Shown here one piece after another: positions 221 to 39,111 of a stretch of 64,000 nucleotides of DNA. Both the position numbers and the translations under genes were made by a program. The notes beneath the pieces are model-generated. The model was not told the origin of the DNA. It searched no databases and saw only the letters and a program-made list of their open reading frames with translations. This DNA comes from an uncultured Candidatus Saccharibacteria bacterium. GTDB lineage: Bacteria > Patescibacteriota > UBA1384 > DTJR01. How positions within the stretch are numbered: position 1 is the first letter of the stretch; each line of letters opens with the position of its first letter. Where the stretch lies: the NCBI GenBank assembly GCA_964487045.1, contig CAZAOT010000001.1, positions 151,863-215,862 of the forward strand, in the 5' to 3' direction.

Positions 221-649
221 ATGGCAAAAGAAAAAGAAATCAAAAAAACAGCTAAGAAACCCGCTGCCACAAAAGCAGCCAAGGAAGCTAAGAAGGCTCC
301 TGTTAAAGTAGAAAAAAAACCAACTGCTAAAAAAGTAGTTGAAAAAGTTGCTCCTAAAAAAGAAAAAGTAGCCAAAGAAGCAAAAGTTGCAACTAAAGAA
401 GTTAAAAAAACAGCCAAGCCTAAGGCTGAATCTAAAGAAGATACCGGTTCAGTTGAATTTCAAATCAATAATTTTTCTGACAAAATAAAATCCCTTGCCA
501 AACATCTTAAGACTCATCCTCATGATTTTGATTCAAGACGTGGTCTTTTGATCATGGTTGGAAAGAGACGAAGACTTCTTAATTATTTGAAGAAGTCAGA
601 ACCTGCTAAGTATGAAGACGCTGTCAAAGCTTTGAAGCTAAAAGCGTAG
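221..649 (+). CDS. rpsO: 30S ribosomal protein S15 with a ~55-aa Lys/Ala-rich histone-H1-like N-terminal extension
   Basis: The C-terminal 85 aa (FQINNFSDKIKSLAKHLKTHPHDFDSRRGLLIMVGKRRRLLNYLKK...) is a typical S15. It sits immediately upstream of pnp, the classic rpsO-pnp arrangement. The N-terminus is a KKPAATKAAKEAKKAPVK low-complexity tail. Confidence 0.85.
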   Translation: MAKEKEIKKTAKKPAATKAAKEAKKAPVKVEKKPTAKKVVEKVAPKKEKVAKEAKVATKEVKKTAKPKAESKEDTGSVEFQINNFSDKIKSLAKHLKTHPHDFDSRRGLLIMVGKRRRLLNYLKKSEPAKYEDAVKALKLKA

Positions 650-867: not shown

Positions 868-3099
868 ATGAAACAGATCCAGCATAAGTTCACTTTGGCG
901 GGACAAGAAATCTCGCTTTCTTCAGGATTGCTAGCATTTCAAGCTGACGGAGCGGTCGTCGCTCAAGCTGGCGGAACAATGGTGCTTGCTACCTGTGTGG
1001 TTGGCAAAGAGCCGACCGATATTGGATATATGCCCCTAACGATCGATTACGAGGAAAGGTTTTATGCTGCCGGAAAAATTTCTGGCTCGAGGTTTATCAA
1101 GAGAGAGGGCAGACCTTCTGAACAAGCAGTGCTAAATGGCCGAATGATCGACCGACCGATAAGACCGCTTTTTCCAAAGCACTTTAGGCACGAGACTCAA
1201 GTCGTTATCACCGTTTTATCTTTTGATAAAGAAAATGATCCAGATATTCTAGCACTTCTCGCTGCATCTAGCGCAATTAGCCAGTCGATGGCTCCTTTTG
1301 CTGGACCTGTTGGAGGAGTTAGAATTGGAATAGTAGGTGGTGAATTCAAGATCAACCCAACTCGAACAGAGATGCTGGAGAGCGATCTTGATTTAGTTAT
1401 TATTGGTACCAAAGAGCGAATTTTGATGATCGAGGCAGCTGCTAAGGAAGTTTCCGAAGAGAAAGTTATCGAAGCAATTGAGTTTGGCAAGCCGTTCATC
1501 GCTGAAATGATTGATGCTCAAGCGCCATTTCTCAATCCTGACAAACTAACTGCCGAAGACCACACAATAGAAATTCAAGCTCAAGTTAAAGAGCTGATTG
1601 GATCCAGACTTCATCAAACAATGCTTGATCGAGAAAATTCCGAAAAAGAAACATTAGTTGAAGCGCTCAAAGAAGAAGTTCTCACAACCTATGAAGGTAA
1701 GTACAAACAAGCTGATCTAGAAGAAGTTTTTGGAAAGTTTCTAGAAAAGGAAGTCAAAGAAACTATTCTTGCCGATGGAGTTAGGCCAGATGGAAGAAAA
1801 TTAGACGAAGTTAGACCAATTGATGTCAAGGTTGGCTTCTTGCCACAGACTCACGGATCGGGACTATTCACTCGCGGTCAGACTCAATCACTTACAACTG
1901 CTACCTTGGCTAGCCCTGGCATGGAACAATTCATCGACACGATGGAAAAAGAAACGACCAAGAGATATATGCATTTCTACAACTTCCCGCCATACTCAAC
2001 CGGCGAAGTTAAGAGAATGGGTTCAACTAGTCGCCGAGAAATCGGCCATGGCGCCTTGGCTGAAAAAGCCTTAGTGCCAGTACTACCAGACCGAGAATCA
2101 TTTCCTTATACAATAAGACTTGTTTCGGAAATTCTCGCTTCAAACGGATCTTCTTCAATGGCAGCAACTTGTGGTTCAACCCTCGCTCTTATGGATGCGG
2201 GCGTACCAATCAAAGACCCAGTTGCTGGAATTGCCATGGGTATGGTCTCGAGACCAAAATCAGGTGAAAAAGCTCGCCCCGTTAGAGATAACGAGGGTAA
2301 CGATGCGAGTCTTGATGACAATACGCCAACTGATGTTAGTTTAATCTCTAACGGGGTAAAAAATCTGGGATTTGAGCAGGATGATAAGTATGAATATGCT
2401 ATCCTGACTGATCTTCAGGGAGTAGAGGACTTCGGAGGAGATATGGACTTCAAGGTTGCTGGTACTAAAAACGGAATTACCGCTATTCAGCTTGACGTTA
2501 AGATTGACGGACTTTCGATGGAGATGATTAAGTCGACCTTCGAAAAAGCAAAAGTTGGCCGAATGTTTATCATGGGTAAGATGCTCGATGTAATAGCTAG
2601 CCCAAAGACTGAGCTTTCAGAGCTCGCTCCACGAATCATCACCGTTAAGATTAACCCAAGTAAGATTGGCGAACTTATCGGACCGGGAGGAAAGAATATC
2701 CAAAATATCATCCTGCAGGCCGGAGGCAAAGAAGTTGTCGCTGTTGACATTGAAGACGATGGAACGGTTATGATTTCTTCAGCTGATGCTAATGCTGCCG
2801 AAGTAGCTAAGAATTTAGTCGAAGGTCAGACTGTCGAAGCTGAAGTTGGCAAGATTTATGACGGAACAGTTTCCAATATCCAAACCGATCGAAATTCAGG
2901 CAAGGAAATCGGCGCGATTGTTGAGTTTATGCCAGGCAAGGATGGTATGGTTCATATTTCAGAAATCAAAAATGAAAGAATTGAAAAAGTTTCCGATTTT
3001 GTAAAAGTCGGCGACAAGGTCAAAGTCAAAGTTCTCGCTGTTGATCCAGAGCGCGGAAGAGTCTCGCTTTCGATCAAACAAGCACAAAAACCTGAATAA
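868..3099 (+). CDS. pnp: polynucleotide phosphorylase (PNPase): two RNase PH domains, KH and S1 domains
   Basis: 743 aa. It has conserved PH-domain motifs, a C-terminal KH (GPGGKNIQNI) and an S1 domain. Synteny with rpsO. Confidence 0.95.
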   Translation: MKQIQHKFTLAGQEISLSSGLLAFQADGAVVAQAGGTMVLATCVVGKEPTDIGYMPLTIDYEERFYAAGKISGSRFIKREGRPSEQAVLNGRMIDRPIRPLFPKHFRHETQVVITVLSFDKENDPDILALLAASSAISQSMAPFAGPVGGVRIGIVGGEFKINPTRTEMLESDLDLVIIGTKERILMIEAAAKEVSEEKVIEAIEFGKPFIAEMIDAQAPFLNPDKLTAEDHTIEIQAQVKELIGSRLHQTMLDRENSEKETLVEALKEEVLTTYEGKYKQADLEEVFGKFLEKEVKETILADGVRPDGRKLDEVRPIDVKVGFLPQTHGSGLFTRGQTQSLTTATLASPGMEQFIDTMEKETTKRYMHFYNFPPYSTGEVKRMGSTSRREIGHGALAEKALVPVLPDRESFPYTIRLVSEILASNGSSSMAATCGSTLALMDAGVPIKDPVAGIAMGMVSRPKSGEKARPVRDNEGNDASLDDNTPTDVSLISNGVKNLGFEQDDKYEYAILTDLQGVEDFGGDMDFKVAGTKNGITAIQLDVKIDGLSMEMIKSTFEKAKVGRMFIMGKMLDVIASPKTELSELAPRIITVKINPSKIGELIGPGGKNIQNIILQAGGKEVVAVDIEDDGTVMISSADANAAEVAKNLVEGQTVEAEVGKIYDGTVSNIQTDRNSGKEIGAIVEFMPGKDGMVHISEIKNERIEKVSDFVKVGDKVKVKVLAVDPERGRVSLSIKQAQKPE

Positions 3100-3120
3100 A
3101 AAACACTAGAAAAGAGAAAG

Positions 3121-3155
3121 AGCCGCTATGTCGAATGACGTAGCGGCTCTTGGTG
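3121..3155. terminator. Bidirectional hairpin terminator between pnp (+) and the convergent GC-rich gene (-)
   Basis: AGAGCCGCTA-n12-TAGCGGCTCTT stem-loop. Confidence 0.45.
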
Positions 3156-3167
3156 GTGAGGAGCGGA

Positions 3168-4235
3168 CTAGCCCCAACTGATCTTAAGAGCCAGGCGACT
3201 CCTGCGATGCGCAAATGCACTGAAAACCTTTGATAGAGCCTCTGGAACATTAAAGGTTGTTACAGTGCGTTCGCAGTAGAACGCCAGATTCTGACCGTAA
3301 TGGCTGCAGTCAGTATGTGCAGCTAACTCGATCATATCCGTCAGAGAGCGACTGACGCTCGTCCGACTTTCGACCGACGTATAGATTCCGTAGATTGTGT
3401 CTGGAACATCAAGCTCGCGCAGTGTCGCGAACAAGGTCCTAGCGTCGTAAGTAGCACAATTACCGAGCTCGCGTATCTCGTTGCAGAGCAGATCGAGTCG
3501 CTCGGCGGGATCCTCAGGGAGGGGTGCAGGTGTGTCAAAGCAAGGCTGATGCAGTTCGGACCATGCCGCTACTGCGAGGAAAGCAAGAGTCCACCTGGGC
3601 TTCTTGATCAGGGAGTCTTGGACGATGATATAGATAGAACCATCCTCCCTGAACTCGAGATCCTGCAGGCTCTTGTAGGCGTCCTGCAGGAGACCGATCG
3701 CATCCACGTATACGGGGCTGGGTCCAGTCCCACACTGGATGCTCTCGTACTTGGGCCAGCTCTCATCGATACAGAGCTGGTAGAGCTTGCGAATGGGGAT
3801 CTGCTCCAGGTACGGAATCTCAAGCAGGAGTTTATTAAGCTCCGTAGCCTGTTCCTGGGTCATGTGGTTCAAATACCACTGCTGGGCGGCCCAGATAACA
3901 TCGTTCCACTCGTAGCTCGGGTCCGAAAACGGGCCTTGGCAATGCCAGCCGTACTGCGAAGTAGCGAGCTTGATCGCTTGTTCGATCACCATAGAACTCC
4001 TGTGAATCGAATCCACGAGCACAACCACGGTCCGTCTATTGAGCTGTCTTCCGAACAAGATGAGCTGCTCGGCAGGAAACCGCTCCATTTCGGGAGCATT
4101 CGACAGCAGGATCTCGAGCTGCTGCTCGTAGTAGGTCTGGTCGCCGTCTTTGGGCTGATCGGTCATTTCATGTACCTGCTTTCTATCGGCGTTCTTGTTG
4201 AAGCCAGCTACTCGGGCATGTGCAGGTCGCGCCAT
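3168..4235 (-). CDS. hypothetical protein in a GC-rich island (start uncertain; the alternative Met gives ...4169)
   Basis: Long ORF in ~56% GC DNA flanked by ~40% GC genes. No recognisable domain. The antisense ORF 3549..4241 is taken as a GC artefact. Confidence 0.5.
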   Translation of the reverse strand: MARPAHARVAGFNKNADRKQVHEMTDQPKDGDQTYYEQQLEILLSNAPEMERFPAEQLILFGRQLNRRTVVVLVDSIHRSSMVIEQAIKLATSQYGWHCQGPFSDPSYEWNDVIWAAQQWYLNHMTQEQATELNKLLLEIPYLEQIPIRKLYQLCIDESWPKYESIQCGTGPSPVYVDAIGLLQDAYKSLQDLEFREDGSIYIIVQDSLIKKPRWTLAFLAVAAWSELHQPCFDTPAPLPEDPAERLDLLCNEIRELGNCATYDARTLFATLRELDVPDTIYGIYTSVESRTSVSRSLTDMIELAAHTDCSHYGQNLAFYCERTVTTFNVPEALSKVFSAFAHRRSRLALKISWG

Positions 4236-4879
4236 GCCTGAGCTGCGAGCATGATCGGAGGTAAGACATGGAGATAGTGAATCTCGTGCATAATGCCTTG
4301 ACTACGAAGATATAGAATTCCCTCCGCCCGATTCCATTCTCGCCTGAAAGCAGGAGAGAGAACAAGGTAGTACAGCTCAGGGAGTCTAAGAGAAAGAACG
4401 CTTCTATCACCATCGGTTGATGTGAAACCACTGAAGCTAGTCGTCCCAGTGCTCGAGGAGCACTTGAGAAGAGTCGTGAGCGGGAAGCGGTCAGTTGTCG
4501 GAGCGCCAAGAAGCAAGTTGCGTTCCTCTTCATCCAACTCCTGTACCGCTTCGTAGAGAAGCTTGAGCGTGGGGGCGATCACGGCCATCTTCGAGAAACG
4601 GATGGCGACGACTGCTTCCCACCACTTGTCGGCGTAGATGAAGTCATCTATGCCTTCGTGCCTGACTCGGTAGTAGAATGCTCCGCCGAACGGTTCAGGT
4701 ATGATAGTGGTGGTGGTATTCAGCAGCACCTGCAAGACCTCTTCGACAGGGTTTAGCGAGGTCCTGACCAGGATACAGCTGGACAAGCCAGCTTCAACGC
4801 CTGCTTCAGCGAGCTCGGTAGCGGTGATCTCTCGTCTGCCGAGCGCTAGATCAAGAAGCGTCTGTCGGAATTGTTCCAT
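4208..4879 (-). CDS. hypothetical protein in a GC-rich island (start set at MEQFRQ..., behind GGGAGGA RBS)
   Basis: The track ORF 4208..4984 was shortened to the Met preceded by GGGAGGACATTGACATG. The leader upstream is conserved with that of the next gene. Confidence 0.5.
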   Translation of the reverse strand: MEQFRQTLLDLALGRREITATELAEAGVEAGLSSCILVRTSLNPVEEVLQVLLNTTTTIIPEPFGGAFYYRVRHEGIDDFIYADKWWEAVVAIRFSKMAVIAPTLKLLYEAVQELDEEERNLLLGAPTTDRFPLTTLLKCSSSTGTTSFSGFTSTDGDRSVLSLRLPELYYLVLSPAFRREWNRAEGILYLRSQGIMHEIHYLHVLPPIMLAAQAWRDLHMPE

Positions 4880-4950
4880 GTCAATGTCCTCCCATTTTGG
4901 GTGGTTTCTAATGCAAGATTGCATAAGGGGAAATAATATCATTTTTGTAA
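4880..4950 (-). promoter_or_regulatory. Conserved leader copy A, including the palindrome ATGCAAGATTGCAT (4911-4924)
   Basis: About 70 nt aligns with 6104-6175 (copy B): ...CCATTTTGG..TTCTAATGCAAGATTGCATAAGGGGAAATAATATCATTTT.. It contains a 6-2-6 inverted repeat ATGCAA-GA-TTGCAT. Confidence 0.45.
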
Positions 4951-5026
4951 AAAAAAAGAAAGCCACCCAGAGTGCTTGGGGCACGGAGGGTGGCTTGAAA
5001 TCAGTCGCGCAAGTGGACTTGGCCAG

Positions 5027-6103
5027 CTAGTCGGGGTGCTTGGCGAGCCACTGGTTCAGGGCTTCGAACACCTGAATCCAGGGCGAGCCTGCGAGGATAT
5101 AGACCTCGCCGGGCGTGTCGTGGTACCAGATCTTCATGCTGCCGTCAGCTTGAAGATCGCACTTCACGACAGAAGGAGCGATTTCCTCCATGATCTGGAG
5201 GGTATTCAGCACAACCGTCTTGTCGTTCAGCTGGGCCTCGACGTGATCAGACAGACCAGCTATGCGAGCTAGACTACGGATCTCGTAGTAGTCCGGATCC
5301 TCCTGGTCCGGCACCTCATTGAGGTAGTCGAGAAGCGTCTGCATCGTAGGCGCTACCGGCAAGTCGCCTGGTGCGTGCTTAATCGCCCAAAGACGGGCGA
5401 CGAGCAGAACGATGTAGTAGCGCGCCATACTGAGATTGTCCTCACGGATCTCCCAGTGCCCGAGTGGCGTCTCCAGGGAAATGTGCCCTGTCGAGATCTC
5501 GCAAGGGAAAGCGAAGCCGAGGACAAGCTCGATGGCCTTCTCGGCGCTGATGGTCGTATAGCCTTGGCAGTCGCCGTGCACGAAGTGCAGCTTGAAGGTC
5601 CCGCTCTCACAGAGGCGCAGTGCCTCGTTGATGGGGAAATTCTGTAGATCTGCCCACTTCTTGATCTCATCTAGATCGCAGGTGCGGCCAGCTAACTCGA
5701 GCATGCGCTCGAGTTCGTCACGTGATTGCGGAGGTATTTCAGTACCTTTCTGCCCTGTAGGGGCGGGGAAGATTTCGGTCGGGACTGAAATGCCCCGCCT
5801 GATGCAGATGGCGACAAGTGCGTCGCGCCATCGTCCAACCTCGAGCAATGTGCTTTCAAGCAAAATCGCACTAGGCTCCGTTGCCGGAAAACCCATGCGG
5901 TTATTGTAGAGAGCGTCGGCAAAAAGCGTTCGAATCGACCAAGCCTTCTGTTTGGAATTGGGCAGTTTGATCTCCGGGGGAAAGCCAGCCGCGATGCCTA
6001 CTTCGATGATGCGCTCCAGTTGGAACGCTCCACTTTCGCAGGCCTCGCGGCAAAGCTCAGAATACTCCTGCTCGGCTCGCGATTGTTGTTCTCTAGCATC
6101 CAT
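5027..6103 (-). CDS. hypothetical protein in a GC-rich island
   Basis: 358-aa ORF in ~57% GC DNA. The start ATG is preceded by GGAGAAAGTTGACAT, the same RBS context as the neighbouring gene. No recognisable domain. Confidence 0.55.
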   Translation of the reverse strand: MDAREQQSRAEQEYSELCREACESGAFQLERIIEVGIAAGFPPEIKLPNSKQKAWSIRTLFADALYNNRMGFPATEPSAILLESTLLEVGRWRDALVAICIRRGISVPTEIFPAPTGQKGTEIPPQSRDELERMLELAGRTCDLDEIKKWADLQNFPINEALRLCESGTFKLHFVHGDCQGYTTISAEKAIELVLGFAFPCEISTGHISLETPLGHWEIREDNLSMARYYIVLLVARLWAIKHAPGDLPVAPTMQTLLDYLNEVPDQEDPDYYEIRSLARIAGLSDHVEAQLNDKTVVLNTLQIMEEIAPSVVKCDLQADGSMKIWYHDTPGEVYILAGSPWIQVFEALNQWLAKHPD

Positions 6104-6175
6104 ATGTCAACTTTCTCCATCTTTTGGTATCTCAACAAGATTGCATGAGGAGTAATGATACCTCTATTTTGGCCT
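6104..6175 (-). promoter_or_regulatory. Conserved leader copy B (CAAGATTGCATGAGG core at 6136-6150)
   Basis: See copy A. This half-palindrome is degenerate on the left arm. Confidence 0.4.
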
Positions 6176-6286
6176 GAGGTCAAGGCGAAGAGAGGATTAT
6201 TATTGACCCCAGTACAAATCTTTTCTGGCTTATTGATTTACATTCAATCACGCCAGAAGCAGATAGTACGGGGCAGGCAACTAAGG

Positions 6287-6315
6287 TTGACGAGTTTATA
6301 AATTTGTGCTATACT
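6287..6315 (+). promoter_or_regulatory. sigma70-like promoter (TTGACG-17-TATACT) for udg
   Basis: -35 at 6287-6292, 17-nt spacer, -10 at 6310-6315, 35 nt before the TTG start of udg. Confidence 0.45.
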
Positions 6316-6349
6316 AACCCTAAGAGTTTTAGTTCTCTAGGATTTTAAA

Positions 6350-8856: not shown

Positions 8857-8992
8857 CTAACCTAAGATGGCCTGCCCCGCAGTTAATGCTCCACGCGATA
8901 ACAGGAAGTAATCCGTTTCGCTGGAAATTATACTGCTGGGGTCATTCCGGTTATAATCGAAGTGTAGATAGTATATAGTTCTAAAACCGAGA

Positions 8993-9020
8993 AAGCTCCT
9001 TGATTAAAAGGAGCTTTTTT
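8993..9020 (+). terminator. rho-independent terminator after rnj
   Basis: AAGCTCCTT-gattaaa-AGGAGCTTTTTT. Confidence 0.6.
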
Positions 9021-9645
9021 GGTATATTGTCCGCTTACAGCGATACACTCTAGCGAGGAGCTGAGAACCTTGATTCTGAACACAGTAATCCCCACACTTC
9101 TTGTGGTTGTCGTGCTCCTCAATCAGTGGGCATACATCCGCAAGATCCGGCACCAGACTCTCCCGAGCGGAGTGACTTGGCTGGTGTGGTCCTTCGTGGC
9201 CTGGGTGATGTTTTACTCCCAGCTCAAAGAAAAGGGCTTTGCCAGTTCATGGATGTTTTTGGCCTATGCGATCGGAGCATTGATCGTTTTGCGTGCTACC
9301 ATCAAGGAAGGCAAGTTCGAGTGGTATCCTATCCACAGGATTTGTCTGACGCTTGCTGGAGTCGCGCTCGTCATCGCTATTTGCCTCAGCGGTAAGGCTG
9401 GGCTATGTGTCAACGTGACCGCCCATCTCATCGGTACTGCACCGCTGTGGAACAAGATCTGGAGCAGACAAAGTCGCGAGCCGCTTAGTTGTTGGTTTGT
9501 CTGGCTGTTTTGCTCTGGTTCCAATCTGCTCTTGGCGATATTCGCACACAACCTACTTATCGCCCCGATTTACTATGCAAGTCACAACGTTGTCATGGTC
9601 AGCTTGCTGCTCTGGAAGCAGCCGAAAGGACTGCCAAGTGGGTAA
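9019..9645 (+). CDS. hypothetical polytopic membrane protein (GC-rich segment)
   Basis: 208-aa ORF with about 6 hydrophobic helices. Local GC is ~52% against ~40% background. Confidence 0.4.
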   Translation: MVYCPLTAIHSSEELRTLILNTVIPTLLVVVVLLNQWAYIRKIRHQTLPSGVTWLVWSFVAWVMFYSQLKEKGFASSWMFLAYAIGALIVLRATIKEGKFEWYPIHRICLTLAGVALVIAICLSGKAGLCVNVTAHLIGTAPLWNKIWSRQSREPLSCWFVWLFCSGSNLLLAIFAHNLLIAPIYYASHNVVMVSLLLWKQPKGLPSG

Positions 9646-10009
9646 CTATCAGACAGCAATCGCAGCGGTAGCCGCAGGGTCTCTCATTCTAGTCGCATTT
9701 GGTCTTCTCTGGGTATTGAGAGGTCGACGTCATCAAGAAGAGCTGACCTTGGCCATCTATGGCATCGCTGCTGGAATTCCGATAACGTTTGCTCTCTTCC
9801 TCTACTGGAAGATCACTCCTGACAATCACACGGTTGTGAACGCAATATGTAACATCTCGAGCTTTGCGGTCATTCTTTTTTCTATTCGCTACATGAGGCC
9901 GAGACGATCCCCGTCAAAGTGGCTTCATATAGTTGTTTGGATAGTGTTGACCATTGTGGTTTCAGCAATGTCCATCAACTTCTCGCAGCTTAAAATGGGC
10001 ACCAGCTAG
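9638..10009 (+). CDS. hypothetical small membrane protein (possible GTG start overlapping the previous stop)
   Basis: The track ORF 9497..10009 overlaps the previous ORF out of frame. GTG at 9638 overlaps the stop of 9019..9645 (..AGTGGGTAA..). There are about 4 TM helices. Confidence 0.3.
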   Translation: MGNYQTAIAAVAAGSLILVAFGLLWVLRGRRHQEELTLAIYGIAAGIPITFALFLYWKITPDNHTVVNAICNISSFAVILFSIRYMRPRRSPSKWLHIVVWIVLTIVVSAMSINFSQLKMGTS

Positions 10010-10070
10010 AAATAGCGAGGTGCCCATTCTTTTTTTGAAGAATCTTCCTTATTCTGCTAAAATTTACTTA

Positions 10071-12191
10071 ATGGCAAAGCGTGGAAGGAAACCAAAAAAT
10101 CCTAATGTTTTGGAGTCGGTAGATCCCAAGGTTATTAAGGAAGTCCTGGGGCTTCTTTTCGGGGCATTGGCGGTAATTATAATCCTTGCTGAGTTTGGGG
10201 CTGCCGGGAGTTTTGGCAAATCAATTTTTGAAAGCATCAAAACTTTCTTTGGTGTAGTTGCTTATGTTTTTGCCTTCTGGCTCGCTTTCGCCTCAGTAAT
10301 GTTTTTTGAACCCAATATTGTGAAGCGCGGCCGGGTTATTTTATGGGGAACATTTTTCTTTTTAATTTTCTTCAGTAGTTTGATCGCTCCATTTGGCCAA
10401 AGTGGCGGAGTGTTTGGTTCTACTCTTTTTTATTCGCTACAGCCTGCAATTGGTGATGCTGGGACATTTATCATTATGTTAGTTGGGGCAATCGGAATGC
10501 TTCTTTTGATCTCAAATGCATCACTTTCGGAAATTTTGAAAAAAATTGGCGCGTCAACGAGAAACGCTTATCCAAATGTTAACGTCGATCTTGGCGCTCA
10601 AAGAGTTTCGGTCTTCAAGGCTGTCAGAAGGAGAATTGGAATGGGCGGTAAACCTGCCGTAGTTGAGGCTCAAAAGCCGATTGCTCCGATGGACGGCAAC
10701 TGGGTTTTTCCTGAAACTGATCTTTTGGAGGATCAAAAATCAACTGCTCAACCTGGAAATGTTACCAAAAATGTTGAGATACTACTTAAAACATTAAATG
10801 ATTTTGGTGTTGAAGTGACAGCAGGCAAAATTAATGTTGGTCCGACCGTTACTCAGTATGAACTCAAACCTTCAGAGGGTGTGAAGCTTAATACTATCAA
10901 GGCCAGGGCTGATGATTTGGCTTTGGCACTTGCAGTTCATCCAGTCAGAGTTGAAGCTCCAATTCCGGGTAAGGCTGCGGTTGGCGTAGAAGTTCCAAAT
11001 AAGGAGGCGGCGAGAGTGAGTCTTCGTTCAGTTTTGGAAAGCGATACCTTCAAAAAACGAAAATCAAATACTTCGCTTCCGCTAGGACTCGATGTTGCTG
11101 GAGATATAATACTAGCCGACCTCAAGAAGATGCCTCATATGTTAGTTGCCGGAGCGACCGGTTCTGGTAAGTCAGTCGGACTAAACTCGATGATCCTTTC
11201 TCTTTTGTATCAGAACTCGCCGCGCGACCTAAGACTCCTCTTAGTTGATCCAAAACGAGTTGAATTTACTGCTTACAATGGAATTCCGCATTTGCTTACC
11301 CCAGTTGTCGTTGATGTAGATAAGACCGTCAATTTACTTCGCTGGGCGGTGACGGAGATGGAGCGCCGATTTAAATTATTTCAGGAAGTAGGTTCTAGAG
11401 ATATCGAATCTTATAATGAAAAGGTGGGGAAGGGTCATAAATCAGAAAATGGTAATAATCATGAAAAAATCCCTTATATTGTGCTTGTGATTGATGAGTT
11501 AGCCGATCTGATGGCTCAGGCCTCTAATGAAGTTGAAGCGGCAATTGTCAGATTGGCTCAGCTGGCTAGGGCAACCGGCATGCATTTAATTGTTGCTACG
11601 CAGCGCCCGAGTGTTGATGTTATCACCGGATTGATTAAAGCTAACATTACCTCTAGGGTCGCTTTTGCGGTTGCATCACAAATCGACTCACGTACTATTA
11701 TCGACCAGTCTGGTGCAGAAAAGCTTATGGGAAATGGAGACATGTTGTTTCTCGGTGGGGAGTTTAGTAAGCCAAAGCGTCTTCAGGGTGCATTTATATC
11801 TGAAAAAGATGTTAAAAGTGTTTGTGACTTCTTGAGAAGCGAAGGCTCGGCTATTTATGACACTTCAATTACTGATTATCGTGAGGTTGCTGGAATCAAA
11901 AGTTCTAAGCGCGGTGGCTCAGGTGGTGGTATGGAAGGATCTGATGCAATTCTAAAAGAAGCTATCCAGCTAGTTGTGGAAAGTGGCACAGCTTCAGCTT
12001 CGTTCCTGCAAAGGCGACTTAGCGTCGGTTATGCCAGAGCGGCAAGACTTCTAGATTTGATGGAAGAACAAGGTGTAATTGGGCCGCCACAGGGCGCAAA
12101 ACCAAGAGATATACTTATAAGCTCATTGGACGAGATCTCTGAAGAGCCTCCTTCGTCAAAGGATAATGGTTTCGATGAGCGTGACTTTTAA
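10071..12191 (+). CDS. ftsK: DNA translocase FtsK/SpoIIIE (N-terminal TM domain, motor domain, gamma winged-helix)
   Basis: Walker A GATGSGKS, the motor domain, and a C-terminal gamma domain (ASFLQRRLSVGYARAARLLDLMEEQGVIGP). Start set at MAKRGRKPK, not the upstream out-of-context Met of the track ORF. Confidence 0.9.
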   Translation: MAKRGRKPKNPNVLESVDPKVIKEVLGLLFGALAVIIILAEFGAAGSFGKSIFESIKTFFGVVAYVFAFWLAFASVMFFEPNIVKRGRVILWGTFFFLIFFSSLIAPFGQSGGVFGSTLFYSLQPAIGDAGTFIIMLVGAIGMLLLISNASLSEILKKIGASTRNAYPNVNVDLGAQRVSVFKAVRRRIGMGGKPAVVEAQKPIAPMDGNWVFPETDLLEDQKSTAQPGNVTKNVEILLKTLNDFGVEVTAGKINVGPTVTQYELKPSEGVKLNTIKARADDLALALAVHPVRVEAPIPGKAAVGVEVPNKEAARVSLRSVLESDTFKKRKSNTSLPLGLDVAGDIILADLKKMPHMLVAGATGSGKSVGLNSMILSLLYQNSPRDLRLLLVDPKRVEFTAYNGIPHLLTPVVVDVDKTVNLLRWAVTEMERRFKLFQEVGSRDIESYNEKVGKGHKSENGNNHEKIPYIVLVIDELADLMAQASNEVEAAIVRLAQLARATGMHLIVATQRPSVDVITGLIKANITSRVAFAVASQIDSRTIIDQSGAEKLMGNGDMLFLGGEFSKPKRLQGAFISEKDVKSVCDFLRSEGSAIYDTSITDYREVAGIKSSKRGGSGGGMEGSDAILKEAIQLVVESGTASASFLQRRLSVGYARAARLLDLMEEQGVIGPPQGAKPRDILISSLDEISEEPPSSKDNGFDERDF

Positions 12192-16005: not shown

Positions 16006-16164
16006 GCCATACGATTGACTTGGCAAGTACTTTGTGCTACGCTAGAATGCACTTAAGCACATTTATATGTGTGATCATGGTTTCAAGCTAAAGAGCTGGG
16101 AGGGCTCAGTTAGCTGAAGCTAGGCAGTGTACGAACAGCTTGTCCACCATTGGAGGGTGATTTG

Positions 16165-16404
16165 ATGTCAGATGCTTTCGCGATCGATGGAGTCGGTCCT
16201 GAGCTGGAGTTGAAGCTTGATCCTGACGAGGTATCGAGGGCATATCGCCTCGCGATCCGCCACGTCAAGAAGCAGGAGAGCAGGATCGCACGCCACGCGA
16301 AGAGATCGGCAGTGAAGAGTCGCAAGCTGCCACCCCGTACTCGGGGAGGCGAGGGAGTATTCCGGACGGCGCACGCTGTCCGGGCTGCAAGTCCGAGGCG
16401 GTAG
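16165..16404 (+). CDS. hypothetical small basic protein (GC-rich island)
   Basis: ATG 7 nt after GGAGGG. ~60% GC. Arg/Lys-rich C-terminus. Followed by a hairpin. Confidence 0.35.
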   Translation: MSDAFAIDGVGPELELKLDPDEVSRAYRLAIRHVKKQESRIARHAKRSAVKSRKLPPRTRGGEGVFRTAHAVRAASPRR

Positions 16405-16420
16405 AACCGCCTCTACATGA

Positions 16421-16452
16421 GAATCTGGCCGGTGGGGAGCTCACGCTCCGCA
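16421..16452 (+). terminator. hairpin terminator
   Basis: GGCCGGTG-n16-CACCGGCC followed by TTTTCT. Confidence 0.4.
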
Positions 16453-16545
16453 CCGGCCTTTTCTAAAGATCATTTATTAAAATTAAAGTAAAAGAAAGCC
16501 GCCTCAAAGAGGCGGCTTGGGGTGTCATTTAGTTCGTGCCGATTG

Positions 16546-17421
16546 CTACTCGAGCCAATCGCGCATCCGAGCCATCGTTTGATCGATGGCGTTGTTGGTG
16601 GGGATCTTGCCCTGTGGGTCGGGATACCCGAGGTACTGGCAAGTTTCCTCGTGCGACCAGCTGCATATTAGCTGTCGAAGCGCGACGTACAGTGCGCAAA
16701 AACGTCCCATCTGACTGATCCGCCAGACATGGTAGAATCCGATCGCATTTTCGGAACAATGAACGTACTCGGCCTCATTGTCAAAGCGTTCGTCTGGGTG
16801 AAACTGGCTCTCGCAGTAGTTCTGGGCGAGAGTTGTCAGTAAGCCATCTGCGATGACTTGCTTGCGACAATCGGGGCAGGAAGCGAGTGCTTGGTAGGCA
16901 CGTTCGCCTTGTCCCCGCCTAATCTGGCTCTGACATAAGATCCACAGCCAGTGCCAGCAGTCGCCACCTAACCATTCGGGTTCTTCGATGTCAACTCCTC
17001 CTGGGTATGGGTGGTCAAGGTTATAGTATCCAAATGAAAGATGGGGGCGGTCACAGAGATGCTGCGCTTCTTCTACAGTGAATTCAGCCGGGCCGTTGAA
17101 AGCGAAATGTACGTCATTCAGGTCGCCGATGAGATCGGCGAAAAGCTCCATGACAGGAGAAGCCAGAATTAGCCGCTCGGTCAGGCCACGCAAGCGCGCA
17201 CTGGCGCGAGCCATGGGCCAGAAAAAGCCAAGTCGTCTTGTCGCCGAGATAGTCGGCTTGTGGTGGCCGAGCCCCTGGTCACCGGTCTTAGCCCGAACGA
17301 ACGCTTCTCGGAATGCTTCCACTGGCGCCCCATTCATTGCTAAGTCATGGATGACATACCAGGCGAAGTGGATCGGAGTTGTAAACCCGTTTTCTAGATT
17401 CTCGCTTTGCACGTGCATCAC
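16546..17421 (-). CDS. hypothetical protein (GC-rich island)
   Basis: 291-aa ORF in ~57% GC DNA. No recognisable domain. The hairpin AAGCCGCCTC-aaa-GAGGCGGCTT lies just past its 3' end. Confidence 0.5.
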   Translation of the reverse strand: MMHVQSENLENGFTTPIHFAWYVIHDLAMNGAPVEAFREAFVRAKTGDQGLGHHKPTISATRRLGFFWPMARASARLRGLTERLILASPVMELFADLIGDLNDVHFAFNGPAEFTVEEAQHLCDRPHLSFGYYNLDHPYPGGVDIEEPEWLGGDCWHWLWILCQSQIRRGQGERAYQALASCPDCRKQVIADGLLTTLAQNYCESQFHPDERFDNEAEYVHCSENAIGFYHVWRISQMGRFCALYVALRQLICSWSHEETCQYLGYPDPQGKIPTNNAIDQTMARMRDWLE

Positions 17422-17558
17422 CTCAAGACATATTTGTGAGGATACTACGTTATGAAAATCTATACCACAATTCGGCTACTAAATCAATCGAGAAAGTTTC
17501 TACTGGCTTCTTGAGAAATTACTCCTGATCTGATAAACTTTTGTTCGTAATCGCAAAT

Positions 17559-17793
<235 letters not shown>

Positions 17794-31502: not shown

Positions 31503-33224
31503 ATGGCACAAGATATAACTTGCAAACAATGTCAGGCTAGATTTGAAGCTACCGACGATGATATCGCGTTTTTGGATAAAATTTCCCCCGTGCTTGATGG
31601 AAAAAAGTATCTGATTTCTACGCCAAAACTTTGTCATGAGTGTAGGCAAATTCGCCGCTATTCATGGAGAAATGAAAGACACCTTTATAAAAGAACTTGT
31701 GATCTTACCGGCGAGCCTATTATTTCGATCTTCTCACCGGATAAGCCATTCAAGGTTTATTCAAACAAAGCTTTTCAGTCAGATGGATGGGATCCACTCG
31801 AATATGGTCGCGAATTTGATTTTAATAGGCCATTTTTTGAGCAATTTAGAGAGCTTCTGGAAGCTGTTCCACGCCAAGCCAATAGCTCAATTTTTAATGA
31901 GAATTGTGATTATTGTAATCAGGCATGGCACTCAAAAGATTCGTACATGTCCTTCAATCTAGGATATGGAGAAAGATGTTTTTACTCAAATGAATCTTTC
32001 TATGTGAAAGATTGTGTCGATACCTTTGATATCAGGCATTGTGAATTTTCTTACTCACTATACGATTGTGATAATTGCAATTCGTGTTCATTTCTTGAAA
32101 ACTGCAAAGATTGCTCAGAGAGTCATTTTTCTTATGACTCGGCTGGTTGTCAAAACATAATTCTGTCGAATGGTCTAAAAAATAAGCAATATTACATTCG
32201 AAACGAAAGTTTTTCCAAGGAAGATTACTTTGAGAAGCTGAAAGAATTAAAAATGTACACCCACTCTGGTCAAGCCGAACTTAAAAAAGAATATGAAGAG
32301 TTAAAGAAAAATGCGATTCACCGGGCAAATCATAATTTGAAGAGTGAAAATTGTACCGGTGACTACATAATCGAATCAAAAAATTGCAGGCAGTGTTTTA
32401 ATATCTTTAAGAGCGAAAACTGTGTGAGAATAGGAAATATCGATGATGCTGGTAGAGACTCAAGAGATATGAATTACACTGCCGAGATGGAACTATGCTA
32501 TGAAGGAGCTTCAATCGCTGGTTACAAAAATATCTTCGGTGTGTTTATGGCATATGGAGAAAATAATTATTACTGCAACTTCTGCGAATACTGCAAAAAT
32601 TGTTTCGGATGTGTCGGTTTGAGGCGAAAAGAGTACTGCATTTTTAATAAGCAATATACCAAAGAAGAATACGAGCAATTATTCGCTAAAATAATTGAAA
32701 AAATGCAAGAAACGGGTGAGTGGGGCGAATTTTTTCCTATCTCAATATCCCAAGTAGCTTACAACGAATCAGTCGCTCAAGATTATGCTCCAAAAACCAA
32801 AGAGGAGGTAGAAGCTATAGGCGGTTATTGGCAAGACAACTTCTACGAGAGTGAATTTACTGGGGAAACTTACGAGCCCAAGGACGATATACATGAATAC
32901 ACAAACAATGAGGAAGAGACCAAGAAGCTACTTGCTGGGGTAATTAAATGTGAGAAGTCTGGCAAACCATTTAAAATTTTGCCACAAGAATTTTTATTTT
33001 ATATCAAGAACAACATTCCAATTCCAACGGTTCATTATAGTGAAAGATTCAAGGAATTATTCAGACTGAGAAACCCACGAAAACTTTTCGAGCGACAATG
33101 CGATTGCGATCGTAATGGACATGGTCATGAAAGCCGCTGTCCGAACAAATTCGAAACGACCTATTCTCCAGATAGGGAGGAACAGGTATACTGTGAGCAG
33201 TGTTACCAAGCGAGCATTTTATAA
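31503..33224 (+). CDS. Cys-rich protein, paralog A (573 aa; N- and C-terminal zinc-ribbon-like modules, two internal C-x2-C repeat halves)
   Basis: 17 nt after the ATPase stop. About 40 Cys. N-terminal CKQC..(27)..CHEC. The motif YCNFCEYCKNCFGCVGLRRKEYCIFNKQYTKEEY. C-terminal C..C/H..C..C cluster. Confidence 0.7.
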   Translation: MAQDITCKQCQARFEATDDDIAFLDKISPVLDGKKYLISTPKLCHECRQIRRYSWRNERHLYKRTCDLTGEPIISIFSPDKPFKVYSNKAFQSDGWDPLEYGREFDFNRPFFEQFRELLEAVPRQANSSIFNENCDYCNQAWHSKDSYMSFNLGYGERCFYSNESFYVKDCVDTFDIRHCEFSYSLYDCDNCNSCSFLENCKDCSESHFSYDSAGCQNIILSNGLKNKQYYIRNESFSKEDYFEKLKELKMYTHSGQAELKKEYEELKKNAIHRANHNLKSENCTGDYIIESKNCRQCFNIFKSENCVRIGNIDDAGRDSRDMNYTAEMELCYEGASIAGYKNIFGVFMAYGENNYYCNFCEYCKNCFGCVGLRRKEYCIFNKQYTKEEYEQLFAKIIEKMQETGEWGEFFPISISQVAYNESVAQDYAPKTKEEVEAIGGYWQDNFYESEFTGETYEPKDDIHEYTNNEEETKKLLAGVIKCEKSGKPFKILPQEFLFYIKNNIPIPTVHYSERFKELFRLRNPRKLFERQCDCDRNGHGHESRCPNKFETTYSPDREEQVYCEQCYQASIL

Positions 33225-33241
33225 TATAGCTAGGAGTTGAG

Positions 33242-34960: not shown

Positions 34961-34972
34961 GGGAGTTGAAAA

Positions 34973-36728: not shown

Positions 36729-36808
36729 AACTTAAACTATTTATATTTAGGCAGATTTCTGCTATTCTTTTGTGATCTTTGAAATCCAGGGAAGGGACTG
36801 AGGTAACT

Positions 36809-37270
36809 ATGCCCAAGAGGAAGCAACCGAACTTTCGCAAGGCGCTTCAGCTGATGCTTAGCTACATCTTTGAGCACCAGTTGGTGGTCAATGATGTGGT
36901 GTTTATGCTCTCGACCGATGTAATGCTCAAGAATCCTCTGATCGTGCAGACGCTTGAAGAAGCAGGGTGCATTGAGCGTCTTGGTAGGCTGTCTCTCACA
37001 ACCCAGGCCAAGTTCAACAGAGCTTACCCTGGCTGCATGAGAGCAGTTCACGACAAGGCGCTCCAGAAGTTCCCGAAGATGAAGTGCCCATGGGGACATT
37101 GGATTTGGGTCGTTAATACGACCCGTTATGACCAGATGAATCCACATCTTCTGCTGTCTCGTCCGCTCCTTGAGCAAGTCGAAAGGCTCTATGGTAAGGA
37201 CACGCAGGTTAGAGCTGTTGACGAAGAAGATCGTCCGACGGACGAGAAGCCATGGCGGGCTGAGCCGTAG
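36809..37270 (+). CDS. hypothetical protein (GC-rich island)
   Basis: 153-aa ORF, ~55% GC. The RBS-like GGGAAGGGACTGAGG precedes its ATG. The antisense ORF 36737..37177 is judged spurious. Confidence 0.4.
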   Translation: MPKRKQPNFRKALQLMLSYIFEHQLVVNDVVFMLSTDVMLKNPLIVQTLEEAGCIERLGRLSLTTQAKFNRAYPGCMRAVHDKALQKFPKMKCPWGHWIWVVNTTRYDQMNPHLLLSRPLLEQVERLYGKDTQVRAVDEEDRPTDEKPWRAEP

Positions 37271-38436: not shown

Positions 38437-38757
38437 AAGAGTGACTAGTTTTCCACAGGCAAGCGTGACCAACCCGAACAAACTTACATAACTTAACTTC
38501 GATATAGAGTAAGTTATATAACATTTTGATAATCTATATAACATATTTGACAAGTCGCACGCTTGATGGTTCTATGGATTTACATTAAATAAGTGTGAGA
38601 TGGGTAAGCGCGGTTAAATACCGTCACAGTCCCGCTACCGTAAAGTCGGAAAACCACTCATACATTCATCCCGAGGAGGAATTATGCAGCATACTTAGGT
38701 GTTTTTTAACTAGCTCAAAAGAGCTTTTTTTAGTCTCTTAAAAATATAAGGAGTAAA

Positions 38758-39111
38758 ATGAAGAAAATTAGAATTATACTTATCGCGTTATCTATCTTGG
38801 TCTTTCCAGTATTTCTAGCAGGCTGTCAGAATACAGCTAATCCTACGCTGCAAACGAGTGTTGCGCCTAGCACAGAAGTAACTTATTCTGGCGTAGAGGG
38901 TAAAACGGTTTACGAATTGCTTAAGGATTCACATCAAGTCGAGGCTGATGAGTCTTCTATGGGAGTTTTGGTCAAATCAATTGATGGCGTAAGCCAAACT
39001 GACAAGGAGTTTTGGCTATACGATATCAACGGTCAGCAGTCTAATCTTGGAGCGGACAAGCAGGCGACGAAAGATGGCGATGTTGTTCACTGGCAATTAA
39101 AAGGCTTCTAA
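38758..39111 (+). CDS. lipoprotein (signal peptide + lipobox LAGC), unknown function
   Basis: MKKIRIILIALSILVFPVFLAGCQN. Confidence 0.55.
   Translation: MKKIRIILIALSILVFPVFLAGCQNTANPTLQTSVAPSTEVTYSGVEGKTVYELLKDSHQVEADESSMGVLVKSIDGVSQTDKEFWLYDINGQQSNLGADKQATKDGDVVHWQLKGF

What the first reader, a model, noticed from the sequence alone, without database searches (positions are those of the whole stretch)
3160..6200. 3-kb GC-rich island (~56% GC in a ~40% GC genome) with three unknown-function genes on the minus strand
Composition shifts abruptly between pnp (ends 3099) and udg (starts 6350). The three ORFs (355, ~223 and 358 aa) have no motif I recognise. They are rich in Trp/His/Cys/Glu relative to the surrounding Lys/Ile-rich proteome. 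Antisense ORFs are long here purely because of GC content. The island is bounded by a hairpin terminator at 3121-3155. On the udg side there is an AT-rich stretch. Similar GC-rich, function-unknown islands occur at 9.0-10.0, 16.1-17.46 and 36.74-37.58 kb. Consistent with a shared foreign source (phage/plasmid/host DNA), or with a distinct class of genes under different mutational pressure.
Basis: partly seen in the sequence, partly recalled or inferred. Interest (0 to 1): 0.7.

Follow-up and report, generated by a model that had tools for sequence, protein, structure and literature searches.

The report
Hypervariable GC-rich gene cluster in Berkelbacteria
The GC-rich 3-kb stretch is real and correctly assembled, but it is not a recent foreign insert: it is this genome's version of a fast-changing gene cluster that sits between the same two housekeeping genes in a whole group of related ultra-small bacteria, is built from one previously undescribed protein module, and stays GC-rich in all of them for reasons still unknown.

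Summary
Observation confirmed. Positions 3168-6103 are 54.7% GC, against 39.8 +/- 2.3% elsewhere. Third-codon GC is 0.59-0.68, against 0.32-0.40 in the flanking genes. Four independent assemblies are 100% identical across the borders.

The three minus-strand genes (C 358 aa, B 223 aa, A 332 aa) are real coding genes (dN/dS 0.22-0.34). They have no hit in Pfam, PHROGs, PADLOC, NCBIfam, the PDB, IMG/VR, phage or plasmid collections. All three are tandem arrays of one new ~100-aa module.

Every relative with readable neighbours lies in the same pnp-udg gap of closely related Berkelbacteria (Patescibacteria). All are on the strand opposite the flanks. Gene number varies from 1 to 7, sometimes with a pyrB. 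Third-codon GC is 0.59-0.79 in every case. Some relatives have no island at all.

Synonymous divergence of island orthologues is about equal to that of pnp, so the cluster is old and its GC-richness is maintained rather than recently imported. The transcription units share a conserved promoter and structured leader that appears to hide the ribosome-binding site.

Function is unknown. My best guess (~0.3) is non-enzymatic binding proteins in an arms race, such as immunity-like proteins.

This is a new variant of a flexible genomic island, of moderate interest.

The parts
3118..3151 (.). Inverted repeat between the convergent genes pnp (+) and A (-). It probably acts as a shared, bidirectional terminator hairpin.
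   Evidence: Arms of 15 nt, 93% complementary, with a 4-nt loop (I3). Nucleotide similarity to relatives ends at the pnp stop or just beyond it, at 3083-3126.
3168..4166 (-). Gene A, 332 aa. A soluble, acidic protein made of three copies of the new ~100-aa module, at residues about 19-99, 104-210 and 213-329.
   Evidence: ORF listing and gene call in public assemblies. GC3 is 0.65. Homologues P0006 and P0010 match the N-terminal module; P0007, P0008, P0011 and P0013 match modules 2 and 3. Module HMM hits. hhalign of the A N-terminus against the family profile gives probability 87%. No hydrophobic segment.
4208..4879 (-). Gene B, 223 aa. Probably two copies of the same module, at residues about 2-94 and 113-222. 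It is co-transcribed with A.
   Evidence: ORF listing and gene call. GC3 is 0.59. No homologue other than itself. hhalign against the family profile gives probability 68%, E 4.8e-5, where unrelated controls score below 1%. The module HMM scores B at E 0.055 and 1.8, ahead of the first non-island ORF (E 6.9) among 19,197 ORFs.
4880..4945 (-). Promoter (-10 region) and conserved 5' leader of the B-A transcription unit. The leader reads UCCCC, hairpin P1, ACCC...GGGAGG (P2, covering the Shine-Dalgarno), N3, TTGAC, ATG.
   Evidence: Direct repeat with the C leader, 84% identical over 25 nt (D2). The same leader sits before the first gene of island transcription units in L085 (twice), L087, L005/L088, L089, L090 and L006. 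The predicted fold contains both P1 and P2.
4947..4996 (-). Intrinsic terminator of gene C: a hairpin followed by a T-run on the minus strand.
   Evidence: Inverted repeat 4960-4975 / 4981-4996 (I6). The T-run is read directly in the sequence.
5027..6103 (-). Gene C, 358 aa, in a transcription unit of its own. It holds three copies of the module, at residues about 12-99, 147-246 and 257-356.
   Evidence: ORF listing. GC3 is 0.68. Homologues: P0002/L004 at 63% identity, and L085 244 aa and L087 258 aa at 27-28%. The iterated family profile joins C to the A family. Module HMM hits at E 3e-28, 6.5e-4 and 1.6e-3. dN/dS against L004 is 0.24.
6104..6183 (-). Promoter and conserved leader of gene C. 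The promoter is TTGACC, 17 nt, TATCAT.
   Evidence: Promoter-like site at 6183-6155 matching 10 of 12 positions. Leader alignment. No Rfam family matches it.

Best explanation
The segment is this genome's version of an old, lineage-restricted, hypervariable accessory locus. It occupies the gap between pnp and udg in a subclade of Berkelbacteria (Patescibacteria/CPR).

Shown:
- It has two transcription units on the strand opposite all flanking genes: C alone, and B followed by A.
- Each unit has a sigma-70-like promoter and a conserved short leader, and ends at a hairpin.
- The three proteins are soluble, acidic and rich in Trp and Cys. A and C are clearly arrays of two to three copies of one previously undescribed ~100-aa module; B probably is too.
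- Between genomes whose flanking genes are 82-91% identical, the locus differs in gene number (1-7) and in module arrangement. Some versions end with an aspartate carbamoyltransferase (pyrB) gene.
- The proteins evolve 3-5 times faster than the flanks, yet under purifying selection.
- In every version the genes are GC-rich (GC3 0.59-0.79, against 0.37-0.49 for the flanks).

Inferred:
- Synonymous divergence of island orthologues is as high as that of pnp. The cluster was therefore most likely already present in the common ancestor of the subclade. Its GC-richness is then a maintained state, held by a GC-favouring process or by selection on these genes, and not unameliorated foreign DNA.
- The leader probably limits translation. 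A CCC stretch (P2), or the 5' UCCUC, can pair with the GGGAGG ribosome-binding site.
- Function, with probability about 0.3: the module proteins are non-enzymatic binding proteins in a molecular arms race, such as immunity- or antitoxin-like proteins, or anti-phage or host-interaction factors. The reasons are that only structural residues are conserved, and that the genes duplicate, fuse, shuffle and diverge quickly.
For: Composition and coding status:
- GC and GC3 shift.
- dN/dS of 0.22-0.34 for five island orthologue pairs, against 0.05 or less for the flanks.

Assembly: four independent assemblies are identical across the borders.

Organism and synteny:
- The nearest pnp genes are Berkelbacteria MAGs at 68-82% identity.
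- The order S15-pnp-[gap]-udg-rnj-[gap]-ftsK-recA is conserved, with the pnp-udg gap ranging from 86 bp to 3.7 kb.

Family restricted to this locus:
- Protein A's homologues, found by exhaustive HMMER, lie in the pnp-udg gap wherever neighbours are visible: L085, L086, L087, L168 and the 119-kb ERZ1426829 contig.
- In 2.1 Mb of related loci, every iterated-HMM hit with readable flanks lies in that gap, on the strand opposite pnp.

One shared module: hhalign and a module HMM link A, B and C.

GC-richness conserved across relatives.

Age: four-fold-site differences are 0.46-0.65 for island orthologues, against 0.46-0.65 for pnp over the genome pairs tested.

Boundaries: similarity to relatives stops at the pnp stop and resumes about 30-100 bp upstream of udg.

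Leader: conserved in 9 copies from 7 genomes. P1 is predicted in 8 of the 9, with different arm sequences (AUGC/GCAU against AGCG/CGCU). P2 is predicted in 6 or 7 of the 9.

Background: genomic islands are common in Patescibacteria (PMC12455944).
Against: - Orthology of the island genes is uncertain, because they could be paralogues. Synonymous sites are near saturation, so 'as old as the flanks' is a soft inference.
- No GC-favouring mechanism was demonstrated. An unsampled mobile gene pool of about 55-58% GC could give the same picture.
- The amino-acid make-up (Lys 3%) looks like that of a proteome that evolved in a GC-richer background.
- B's membership of the family rests on sub-threshold scores.
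- No toxin gene or defence gene is adjacent, and no known immunity family is hit.
- Leader folding energies are mostly not better than shuffled controls. RNAalifold on the MAFFT alignment recovers only P2.
Confidence: 0.65

Rival explanations
1. Recent horizontal acquisition from a phage, plasmid or host with about 55% GC, which has not yet ameliorated.
For: The composition is atypical at all codon positions, and the amino-acid usage is that of a GC-richer proteome. All the genes are orphans. Genomic islands and gene transfer are frequent in Patescibacteria (PMC12455944).
Against: There is no integrase, att-like repeat or adjacent tRNA. PHROGs, IMG/VR, INPHARED and PLSDB give no hit. The only homologues in 1.84 billion representatives lie, where context is visible, at the same locus in relatives. 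Island orthologues are as diverged at synonymous sites as pnp is.
Confidence: 0.08
2. A clade-specific mobile gene pool, such as an unsampled Berkelbacteria phage or plasmid, or GC-rich sister lineages, keeps supplying GC-rich cassettes. These replace one another by homologous recombination through the conserved pnp and udg flanks after DNA uptake.
For: Gene content differs completely between genomes with 82-91% identical flanks. The homology breakpoints lie exactly at the ends of the flanking genes. Other gaps between core genes (rnj-ftsK) also hold variable GC-rich orphans. GC-rich Berkelbacteria exist (L018, 62% GC). Two island versions co-occur in one sample.
Against: No extrachromosomal or GC-rich-backbone copy of the family was found. 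The synonymous divergence of orthologous island genes matches that of the flanks, rather than being lower. The leader is conserved in place across versions.
Confidence: 0.2
3. Assembly chimera, or contamination with DNA of a GC-richer organism.
For: The composition steps abruptly at both borders.
Against: Four independent assemblies from two studies are 100% identical across the junctions. The same architecture occurs in at least 10 other genomes and metagenomes.
Confidence: 0.02
4. The module proteins are accessory or regulatory partners of the aspartate carbamoyltransferase found in some versions of the island. The window would then hold a remnant of a pyrimidine-related operon.
For: pyrB is the last gene, next to pnp, on the island strand in L090, L006 and ERZ1426829. 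In L004 a pyrB-like gene directly follows a C homologue. All are GC-rich.
Against: Most islands, including the window's, lack pyrB but keep the module genes. There is no similarity to the regulatory chain PyrI or to any nucleotide-binding domain. The pyrB copies are themselves divergent (60% and 33% identity).
Confidence: 0.06

Closest known systems
Flexible (hypervariable) genomic islands between conserved core genes, as described in streamlined bacteria such as Pelagibacter HVRs and Prochlorococcus islands (from my own knowledge), and the genomic islands reported in Patescibacteria (PMC12455944).
   Same: The position is fixed between conserved core genes. Gene content differs between close relatives. 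Some relatives lack the island. Composition is atypical, the cargo is mostly orphan genes, and there is no integrase.
   Different: Here the island is GC-richer than the core by 20-35 points of GC3, whereas islands are usually AT-richer. The offset is conserved across relatives despite near-saturated synonymous divergence. The cargo is a single, locus-restricted family of modular paralogues rather than glycosylation, transport or defence genes.
Polyimmunity loci of polymorphic-toxin systems, such as SUKH/SMI1-KNR4 and Imm families (Zhang, Iyer and Aravind; from my own knowledge).
   Same: Tandem arrays of small, soluble, fast-diverging paralogous domains. Domains are sometimes fused head to tail. 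Copy number varies between strains, and only structural residues are conserved.
   Different: No sequence hit to any known immunity family, no adjacent toxin gene, and an unresolved fold. This is a resemblance in behaviour only; membership is not shown.
Leaders that sequester the Shine-Dalgarno sequence, such as RNA thermometers of the ROSE/fourU type and simple translational operators (from my own knowledge).
   Same: A short 5' UTR in which a C-rich stretch can pair with the GGGAGG ribosome-binding site. It follows a 5' hairpin whose arm sequences differ between copies.
   Different: No Rfam family matches it. The predicted stability is weak, and no ligand or temperature logic is evident. 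Its conservation may also reflect duplication of promoter and leader together with the genes.

Membership tests
Integrase-mediated mobile island (prophage, ICE or integrated plasmid) | An integrase, recombinase or transposase gene in or beside the island | tested here: not met
   Only A, B and C lie between pnp and udg. None hits Pfam, PHROGs or NCBIfam.
Integrase-mediated mobile island (prophage, ICE or integrated plasmid) | Flanking direct repeats (att sites) or insertion at a tRNA gene | tested here: not met
   No border repeats; the direct repeats found are internal or look like chance matches. The nearest tRNA is 11 kb away.
Integrase-mediated mobile island (prophage, ICE or integrated plasmid) | Relatives in phage or plasmid collections | tested here: not met
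   No match in IMG/VR, in INPHARED or PLSDB at protein or DNA level, or in BFVD structures.
Flexible / hypervariable genomic island at a core-gene junction | The same position between the same conserved core genes in related genomes | tested here: met
   The pnp-[island]-udg arrangement is seen in W, L085, L086, L005/L088, L089, L090 and ERZ1426829. L087, L168 and L006 show it on the pnp side.
Flexible / hypervariable genomic island at a core-gene junction | Gene content varies between close relatives, and some lack the island | tested here: met
   One to seven genes in genomes with 82-91% identical pnp. The gap is only 86-136 bp in L007, L010, L022, L024 and L093.
Flexible / hypervariable genomic island at a core-gene junction | Composition differs from the core genome | tested here: met
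   GC3 is 0.59-0.79 against 0.37-0.49 in every version. The direction is GC-rich, which is opposite to the usual case.
Polymorphic-toxin immunity array (SUKH / Imm families) | Tandem, fast-diverging, small soluble paralogues, sometimes fused | tested here: met
   The module is repeated within and between genes. pN is 0.21-0.38, against 0.065-0.095 for the flanks. No hydrophobic segments.
Polymorphic-toxin immunity array (SUKH / Imm families) | Sequence or structural membership of a known immunity family | tested here: not met
Polymorphic-toxin immunity array (SUKH / Imm families) | A linked toxin gene, or demonstrated protection against a toxin | tested here: not met
   No toxin-like gene lies in or beside any version of the island. 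Protection cannot be tested with these tools.
Known anti-phage defence systems (PADLOC-DB) | A hit to a defence-system protein model | tested here: not met
   No family at E up to 0.1 for A, B or C.
Aspartate carbamoyltransferase operon (pyrB / pyrI) | A catalytic-subunit gene (pyrB) in the cluster | tested here: not met
   Absent from the window. Present in the islands of L090 and L006 (TIGR00670 scores of 265 and 261 bits against a cut-off of 237), as a fragment in L004, and in ERZ1426829.
Aspartate carbamoyltransferase operon (pyrB / pyrI) | A regulatory chain (PyrI) homologue | tested here: not met
   No PyrI domain hit in any island protein.
Described cis-regulatory RNA families (Rfam 15) | The leader matches a covariance model | tested here: not met
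   No match at gathering score. At E up to 1 there is only one sub-threshold chance hit, on the other strand.

The most novel reading that the evidence does not exclude
This CPR subclade keeps two compositional equilibria within one small genome. Conserved core genes sit at GC3 of about 0.4. The variable genes between core genes, including this locus-restricted modular family and even a pyrB, are held at GC3 0.6-0.8 over near-saturating synonymous divergence.

That would imply a locus- or gene-class-specific GC-favouring process. Candidates are strong biased gene conversion at recombination hotspots in naturally competent CPR bacteria, or selection on codon choice to throttle expression. This process would act on a new family of arms-race proteins.
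Probability: 0.3. Interest if true: 0.7.

Novelty: new variant of a known kind. Interest (0 to 1): 0.5.

Why it matters
CPR/Patescibacteria genomes are tiny, and most of their lineage-specific genes have no known function. This locus offers three things.

- A clean, repeatedly sampled example of a hypervariable hotspot, with defined borders, in an uncultivated lineage.
- A new modular protein family whose duplication, fusion and fast divergence mark it as a candidate for conflict or host-interaction functions. These are central to the episymbiotic lifestyle.
- An unusual polarity of composition. The accessory genes are GC-richer than the core, and this persists across the clade. That bears on how base composition is set in bacteria (mutation bias, biased gene conversion or selection).

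It is also a practical warning: 'GC-atypical' does not mean 'recently foreign' when islands are called from composition in such genomes.

Tried and rejected
Sequence searches that gave nothing:
- Pfam, PHROGs, PADLOC and NCBIfam scans of A, B and C and of the other GC-rich ORFs.
- A Pfam scan of 16 family members and a profile search of PDB sequences.
- Protein searches: C has only one partial homologue and B has none.
- A profile search with alignment A1 returned only three proteins, because of the candidate cap.
- Viral contig scans for A, B and C.
- Phage and plasmid BLAST at protein and DNA level.

Structure:
- AlphaFold with 5- and 7-row alignments gave pLDDT of 66 and 64.
- I note the conserved Trp in the C-terminal helix as a lead only. 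It is not a test.
- Foldseek against BFVD gave nothing. The AFDB library was not available.

RNA:
- Rfam has no match to the leader.
- RNAalifold on the MAFFT alignment found only the CCC/GGG helix, because the P1 arms were misaligned.
- I did not build a covariance model, for the same reason.

Ideas considered and dropped:
- A resemblance of one leader (L085) to a PyrR binding site is not conserved in the other copies.
- A helix-turn-helix-like pattern in each module has no support from Pfam.
- The idea that pyrB is an ancient resident of this gap was checked. pyrB is found only in L090, L006 and L004 among the held loci.
- Head-on orientation as the cause of GC-richness was rejected, because the GC-rich genes in the rnj-ftsK gap run in the same direction as their flanks.

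Literature searches found no description of this locus or family.


Full report
**1.

A sliding-window profile shows 1-kb windows at 0.525-0.573 GC between about 3.0 and 6.0 kb. The rest of the 64-kb window averages 0.398 (sd 0.023, maximum 0.446, excluding the other GC-rich patches). The coding part, 3168-6103, is 54.7% GC.

The excess is concentrated at third codon positions. GC3 is 0.65, 0.59 and 0.68 for the three minus-strand ORFs, against 0.32-0.40 for pnp, udg, rnj, ftsK and recA. GC1 and GC2 are only slightly raised. That periodicity is what real genes show.

Codon choice is shifted wholesale towards CTC/CTG, CGC, GAG, AAG, ATC and GGC. The proteins have 9.3-fold more Trp, 3.8-fold more Cys and one third of the Lys of the neighbouring housekeeping proteins. 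Glu is not enriched.

The hairpin next to pnp is at 3118-3151, and the udg-side spacer is 38% GC. The most likely gene lengths are 332 aa (A, 3168-4166), 223 aa (B, 4208-4879) and 358 aa (C, 5027-6103).

**2. It is not an assembly artefact and not spurious ORFs**

Contigs assembled separately from SRR11845623, -24 and -25 are 100% identical to the window across both borders. So is a contig from the unrelated run SRR29243437, across the pnp/A junction.

Island genes compared with their nearest homologues give dN/dS of 0.22-0.34, with pN well below pS. They are therefore translated and constrained, but more loosely than the flanks, whose dN/dS is 0.05 or less.

**3. The organism and the locus**

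The closest pnp genes in the GTDB species set are Berkelbacteria/Patescibacteria MAGs at 68-82% identity. The gene order S15-pnp-[gap]-udg-RNase J-[gap]-ftsK-recA-pyk is conserved across them. The pnp-udg gap, however, ranges from 86 bp to 3.7 kb.

A tight subclade shares 82-91% identity in the pnp C-terminus. It comprises the window plus L085, L086, L087, L168, L005/L088, L089 and L090. L006 lies just outside it.

In this group the gap holds genes on the strand opposite pnp and udg. Their GC3 is 0.59-0.79, against a pnp GC3 of 0.37-0.49.

Nucleotide similarity between the window and these relatives stops at or just past the pnp stop codon (3083-3126). It resumes at about 6254-6322, just upstream of udg. 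There are no border repeats, no integrase and no nearby tRNA.

**4. One new protein family, restricted to this locus**

A, B and C have no hit in Pfam, PHROGs, PADLOC or NCBIfam.

- C has one partial homologue in 5.8 billion clustered proteins (P0002, 63% identity).
- B has none.
- An exhaustive HMMER search of A against 1.84 billion representatives returns six true relatives. It also returns two repeat-protein artefacts.

Contig look-ups for five of these six relatives show neighbouring genes, and each places the relative in the pnp-udg gap of another Berkelbacteria genome:

- L085: udg | 223, 228, 244, 242 and 127 aa | pnp.
- L086: udg | 251 aa | pnp.
- L087: 257, 258, 142 and 121 aa | pnp.
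- L168: 243 aa | pnp.
- A 119-kb ENA contig: udg | 240, 240, 126, 146, 220 and 122 aa plus a carbamoyltransferase | pnp.

The sixth relative, P0011, sits on a 947-bp contig with no visible neighbours.

I ran iterated profile searches over all ORFs of 2.1 Mb of related loci. Every family member with readable flanks was in this gap. The searches also merged the A and C families.

Profile-profile comparison and a module-level HMM show that the proteins are arrays of one ~100-110-aa unit:

- C has three copies. The module HMM scores them at E 3e-28, 6.5e-4 and 1.6e-3.
- A has three copies.
- B probably has two. hhalign gives probability 68% and E 4.8e-5, where controls score below 1%. The HMM gives E 0.055 and 1.8.
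- The twelve best sub-threshold hits are all island ORFs aligned over nearly the whole module. The first unrelated ORF appears only at E 6.9.

The module has three parts:

- It starts with a helix followed by an 'hP/D..hh..h...G-h-P' turn.
- A beta-rich middle follows.
- It ends in an amphipathic helix with conserved Trp, reading W..hh.A..AW...H.P or W..V..AL..RR..L.

Only structural-looking residues are conserved (W, A, L, P). There are no hydrophobic segments or signal peptides.

**5. Anatomy and regulation**

C is a transcription unit of its own. It has a TTGACC-17-TATCAT promoter at 6183-6155 and a hairpin plus T-run terminator at 4947-4996.

B and A follow as a second unit. It ends at the 3118-3151 hairpin shared with pnp.

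The two units are preceded by copies of the same leader (D2). The same leader precedes the first gene of island units in L085 (twice), L087, L005/L088, L089, L090 and, more weakly, L006.

The leader has this order:

- a -10 box;
- UCCUC;
- hairpin P1;
- ACCC;
- 3-15 nt;
- GGGAGG;
- N3;
- TTGAC;
- N0-2;
- ATG.

P1 is predicted in 8 of the 9 copies, and its arm sequences differ between them (AUGCAA/UUGCAU, UUAUGCU/AGCAUAA, CUUAGCG/CGCUAGG, CUCAU/AUGAG). The CCC/GGG helix P2 covers the first bases of the Shine-Dalgarno sequence in 6 or 7 of the 9.

Folding energies are mostly not better than shuffled controls. RNAalifold on the MAFFT alignment recovers only P2. The RNA structure is therefore plausible but not proven. 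No Rfam family matches it. My inference is that the leader damps translation initiation.

**6. How the locus evolves**

Within the tight subclade the island holds one to seven genes. Module arrangements differ: there are single-module proteins of 121-146 aa and two- and three-module fusions.

Orthologue identities are only 45-68%, and paralogue identities 25-30%.

Four versions end with a GC-rich aspartate carbamoyltransferase: L090, L006, the ENA contig and the L004 fragment. The full-length copies score above the TIGR00670 cut-off. The window version lacks this gene.

L089 keeps the leader but has little coding sequence. Relatives further out (L007, L010, L022, L024, L093) have no island at all.

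More distant Berkelbacteria carry unrelated orphans in the same gap, or a PIN-domain gene. The junction is therefore a general hotspot.

**7. Foreign or maintained?**

This is the key test. For the same genome pairs, island orthologues differ at 46-65% of four-fold sites (pS 0.55-0.64). The flanking pnp differs at 46-65% (pS 0.59-0.76). Non-synonymous differences are 3-5 times higher in the island.

The island genes therefore look as old as the split of these genomes. Their third positions have largely turned over, yet GC3 is still 0.59-0.79 in every lineage.

Plain amelioration of imported DNA should have pulled them towards the host value. I conclude that the GC-richness is a maintained state. 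Either a GC-favouring process or selection acts on these genes.

The caveats are uncertain orthology and near-saturation. A continuously circulating, clade-specific GC-rich gene pool cannot be excluded. I give that rival about 0.2.

The same dichotomy holds elsewhere. In the window, seven orphan ORFs sit at GC3 0.59-0.68 and about 50 genes at 0.21-0.49. In relatives, the variable genes of the rnj-ftsK gap and of other gaps are GC-rich, while the conserved genes are not. Orientation is not the cause, because the rnj-ftsK genes run in the same direction as their flanks.

**8. Function**

Structure prediction was limited to shallow alignments and gave pLDDT of 64-66.

On present evidence the proteins are non-enzymatic and soluble. 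They evolve by duplication, fusion and fast divergence, and they have a dedicated translational leader. The systems that behave most like this are immunity or antitoxin arrays and other arms-race binding proteins.

I put about 0.3 on that class. A link to pyrB gets about 0.06. The rest is unknown. Membership of any known immunity, defence or regulator family was tested and not met.

**9. Verdict**

The preferred explanation (foreign DNA from a phage, plasmid or host, or a misassembly) is not supported. The alternative (a distinct class of genes at a different composition) fits.

The locus is a flexible genomic island of a known general kind, since islands are common in Patescibacteria (PMC12455944). 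It has unusual traits:

- a GC-rich rather than AT-rich offset, conserved across a clade;
- a cargo made of a single new modular family confined to one chromosomal junction;
- a shared leader.

I rate it a new variant of a known kind, with interest 0.5.

Noticed in passing
window 8857-10079 (rnj-ftsK gap); L005 17064-17513, L089 9515-10252, L090 10991-12421, L085 3575-4369: The rnj-ftsK gap is a second variable hotspot. The window holds a 208-aa membrane ORF (9019-9645, GC3 0.64). Relatives hold different GC-rich orphans there (GC3 0.64-0.77), on the same strand as the flanks. A conserved 180-aa gene beside them is AT-type (GC3 0.38-0.39).
   Followed up: partly
window 16150-17470: A further GC-rich patch lies next to tRNA-Ser (17559-17647). 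It has a 291-aa orphan (16546-17421, minus strand, GC3 0.62) with its own terminator, and an 84-aa ORF (16150-16404, plus strand, GC3 0.65). In the 291-aa gene's leader, a CCUCA...UGAGG hairpin covers its ribosome-binding site. No family hits, and no link to the A/B/C module.
   Followed up: partly
window 36779-37270: A 163-aa orphan ORF with GC3 0.62 in another GC-rich patch. No hits in any library, and no similarity to the pnp-udg family.
   Followed up: partly
L090 5871-6971 (-), L006 12564-13532 (-), L004 826-1341 (+), ENA ERZ1426829 contig: Some versions of the island end with a GC-rich aspartate carbamoyltransferase (pyrB). It scores above the TIGR00670 cut-off and has GC3 0.59-0.77. This is a recognisable enzyme gene that shares the island's composition. 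It is absent from the window's island.
   Followed up: partly
L018 4160-4702: In a 62% GC Berkelbacteria MAG the pnp-udg gap carries a PIN-domain (VapC-like) gene. The junction therefore accepts other accessory cargo in distant relatives.
   Followed up: no
window 38592-38664 (+): An AdoCbl-II (cobalamin) riboswitch aptamer scoring above the Rfam gathering score. It lies upstream of a 117-aa lipoprotein-like ORF (38758-39111).
   Followed up: no
window 47218-47292 (+): A tRNA-Ile with a UAU anticodon. This is uncommon in bacteria, most of which decode AUA with a lysidine-modified CAU tRNA.
   Followed up: no
window 221-649 (+): Ribosomal protein S15 carries an N-terminal extension of roughly 55-70 aa, rich in Lys, Ala and Glu. 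It is also seen in part of the relatives.
   Followed up: no
window 31503-36673 (+): Three consecutive ORFs of nearly equal size (573, 572 and 566 aa). The last is rich in CxxC-type cysteine motifs. They may be tandem paralogues.
   Followed up: no
L176 and L087 (both from SRR29243437): The same sample contains the window-type island (100% identical over 2,498 nt) and a different island version on a different species backbone (pnp 87-89% identical). Distinct island versions therefore co-exist in one community.
   Followed up: partly
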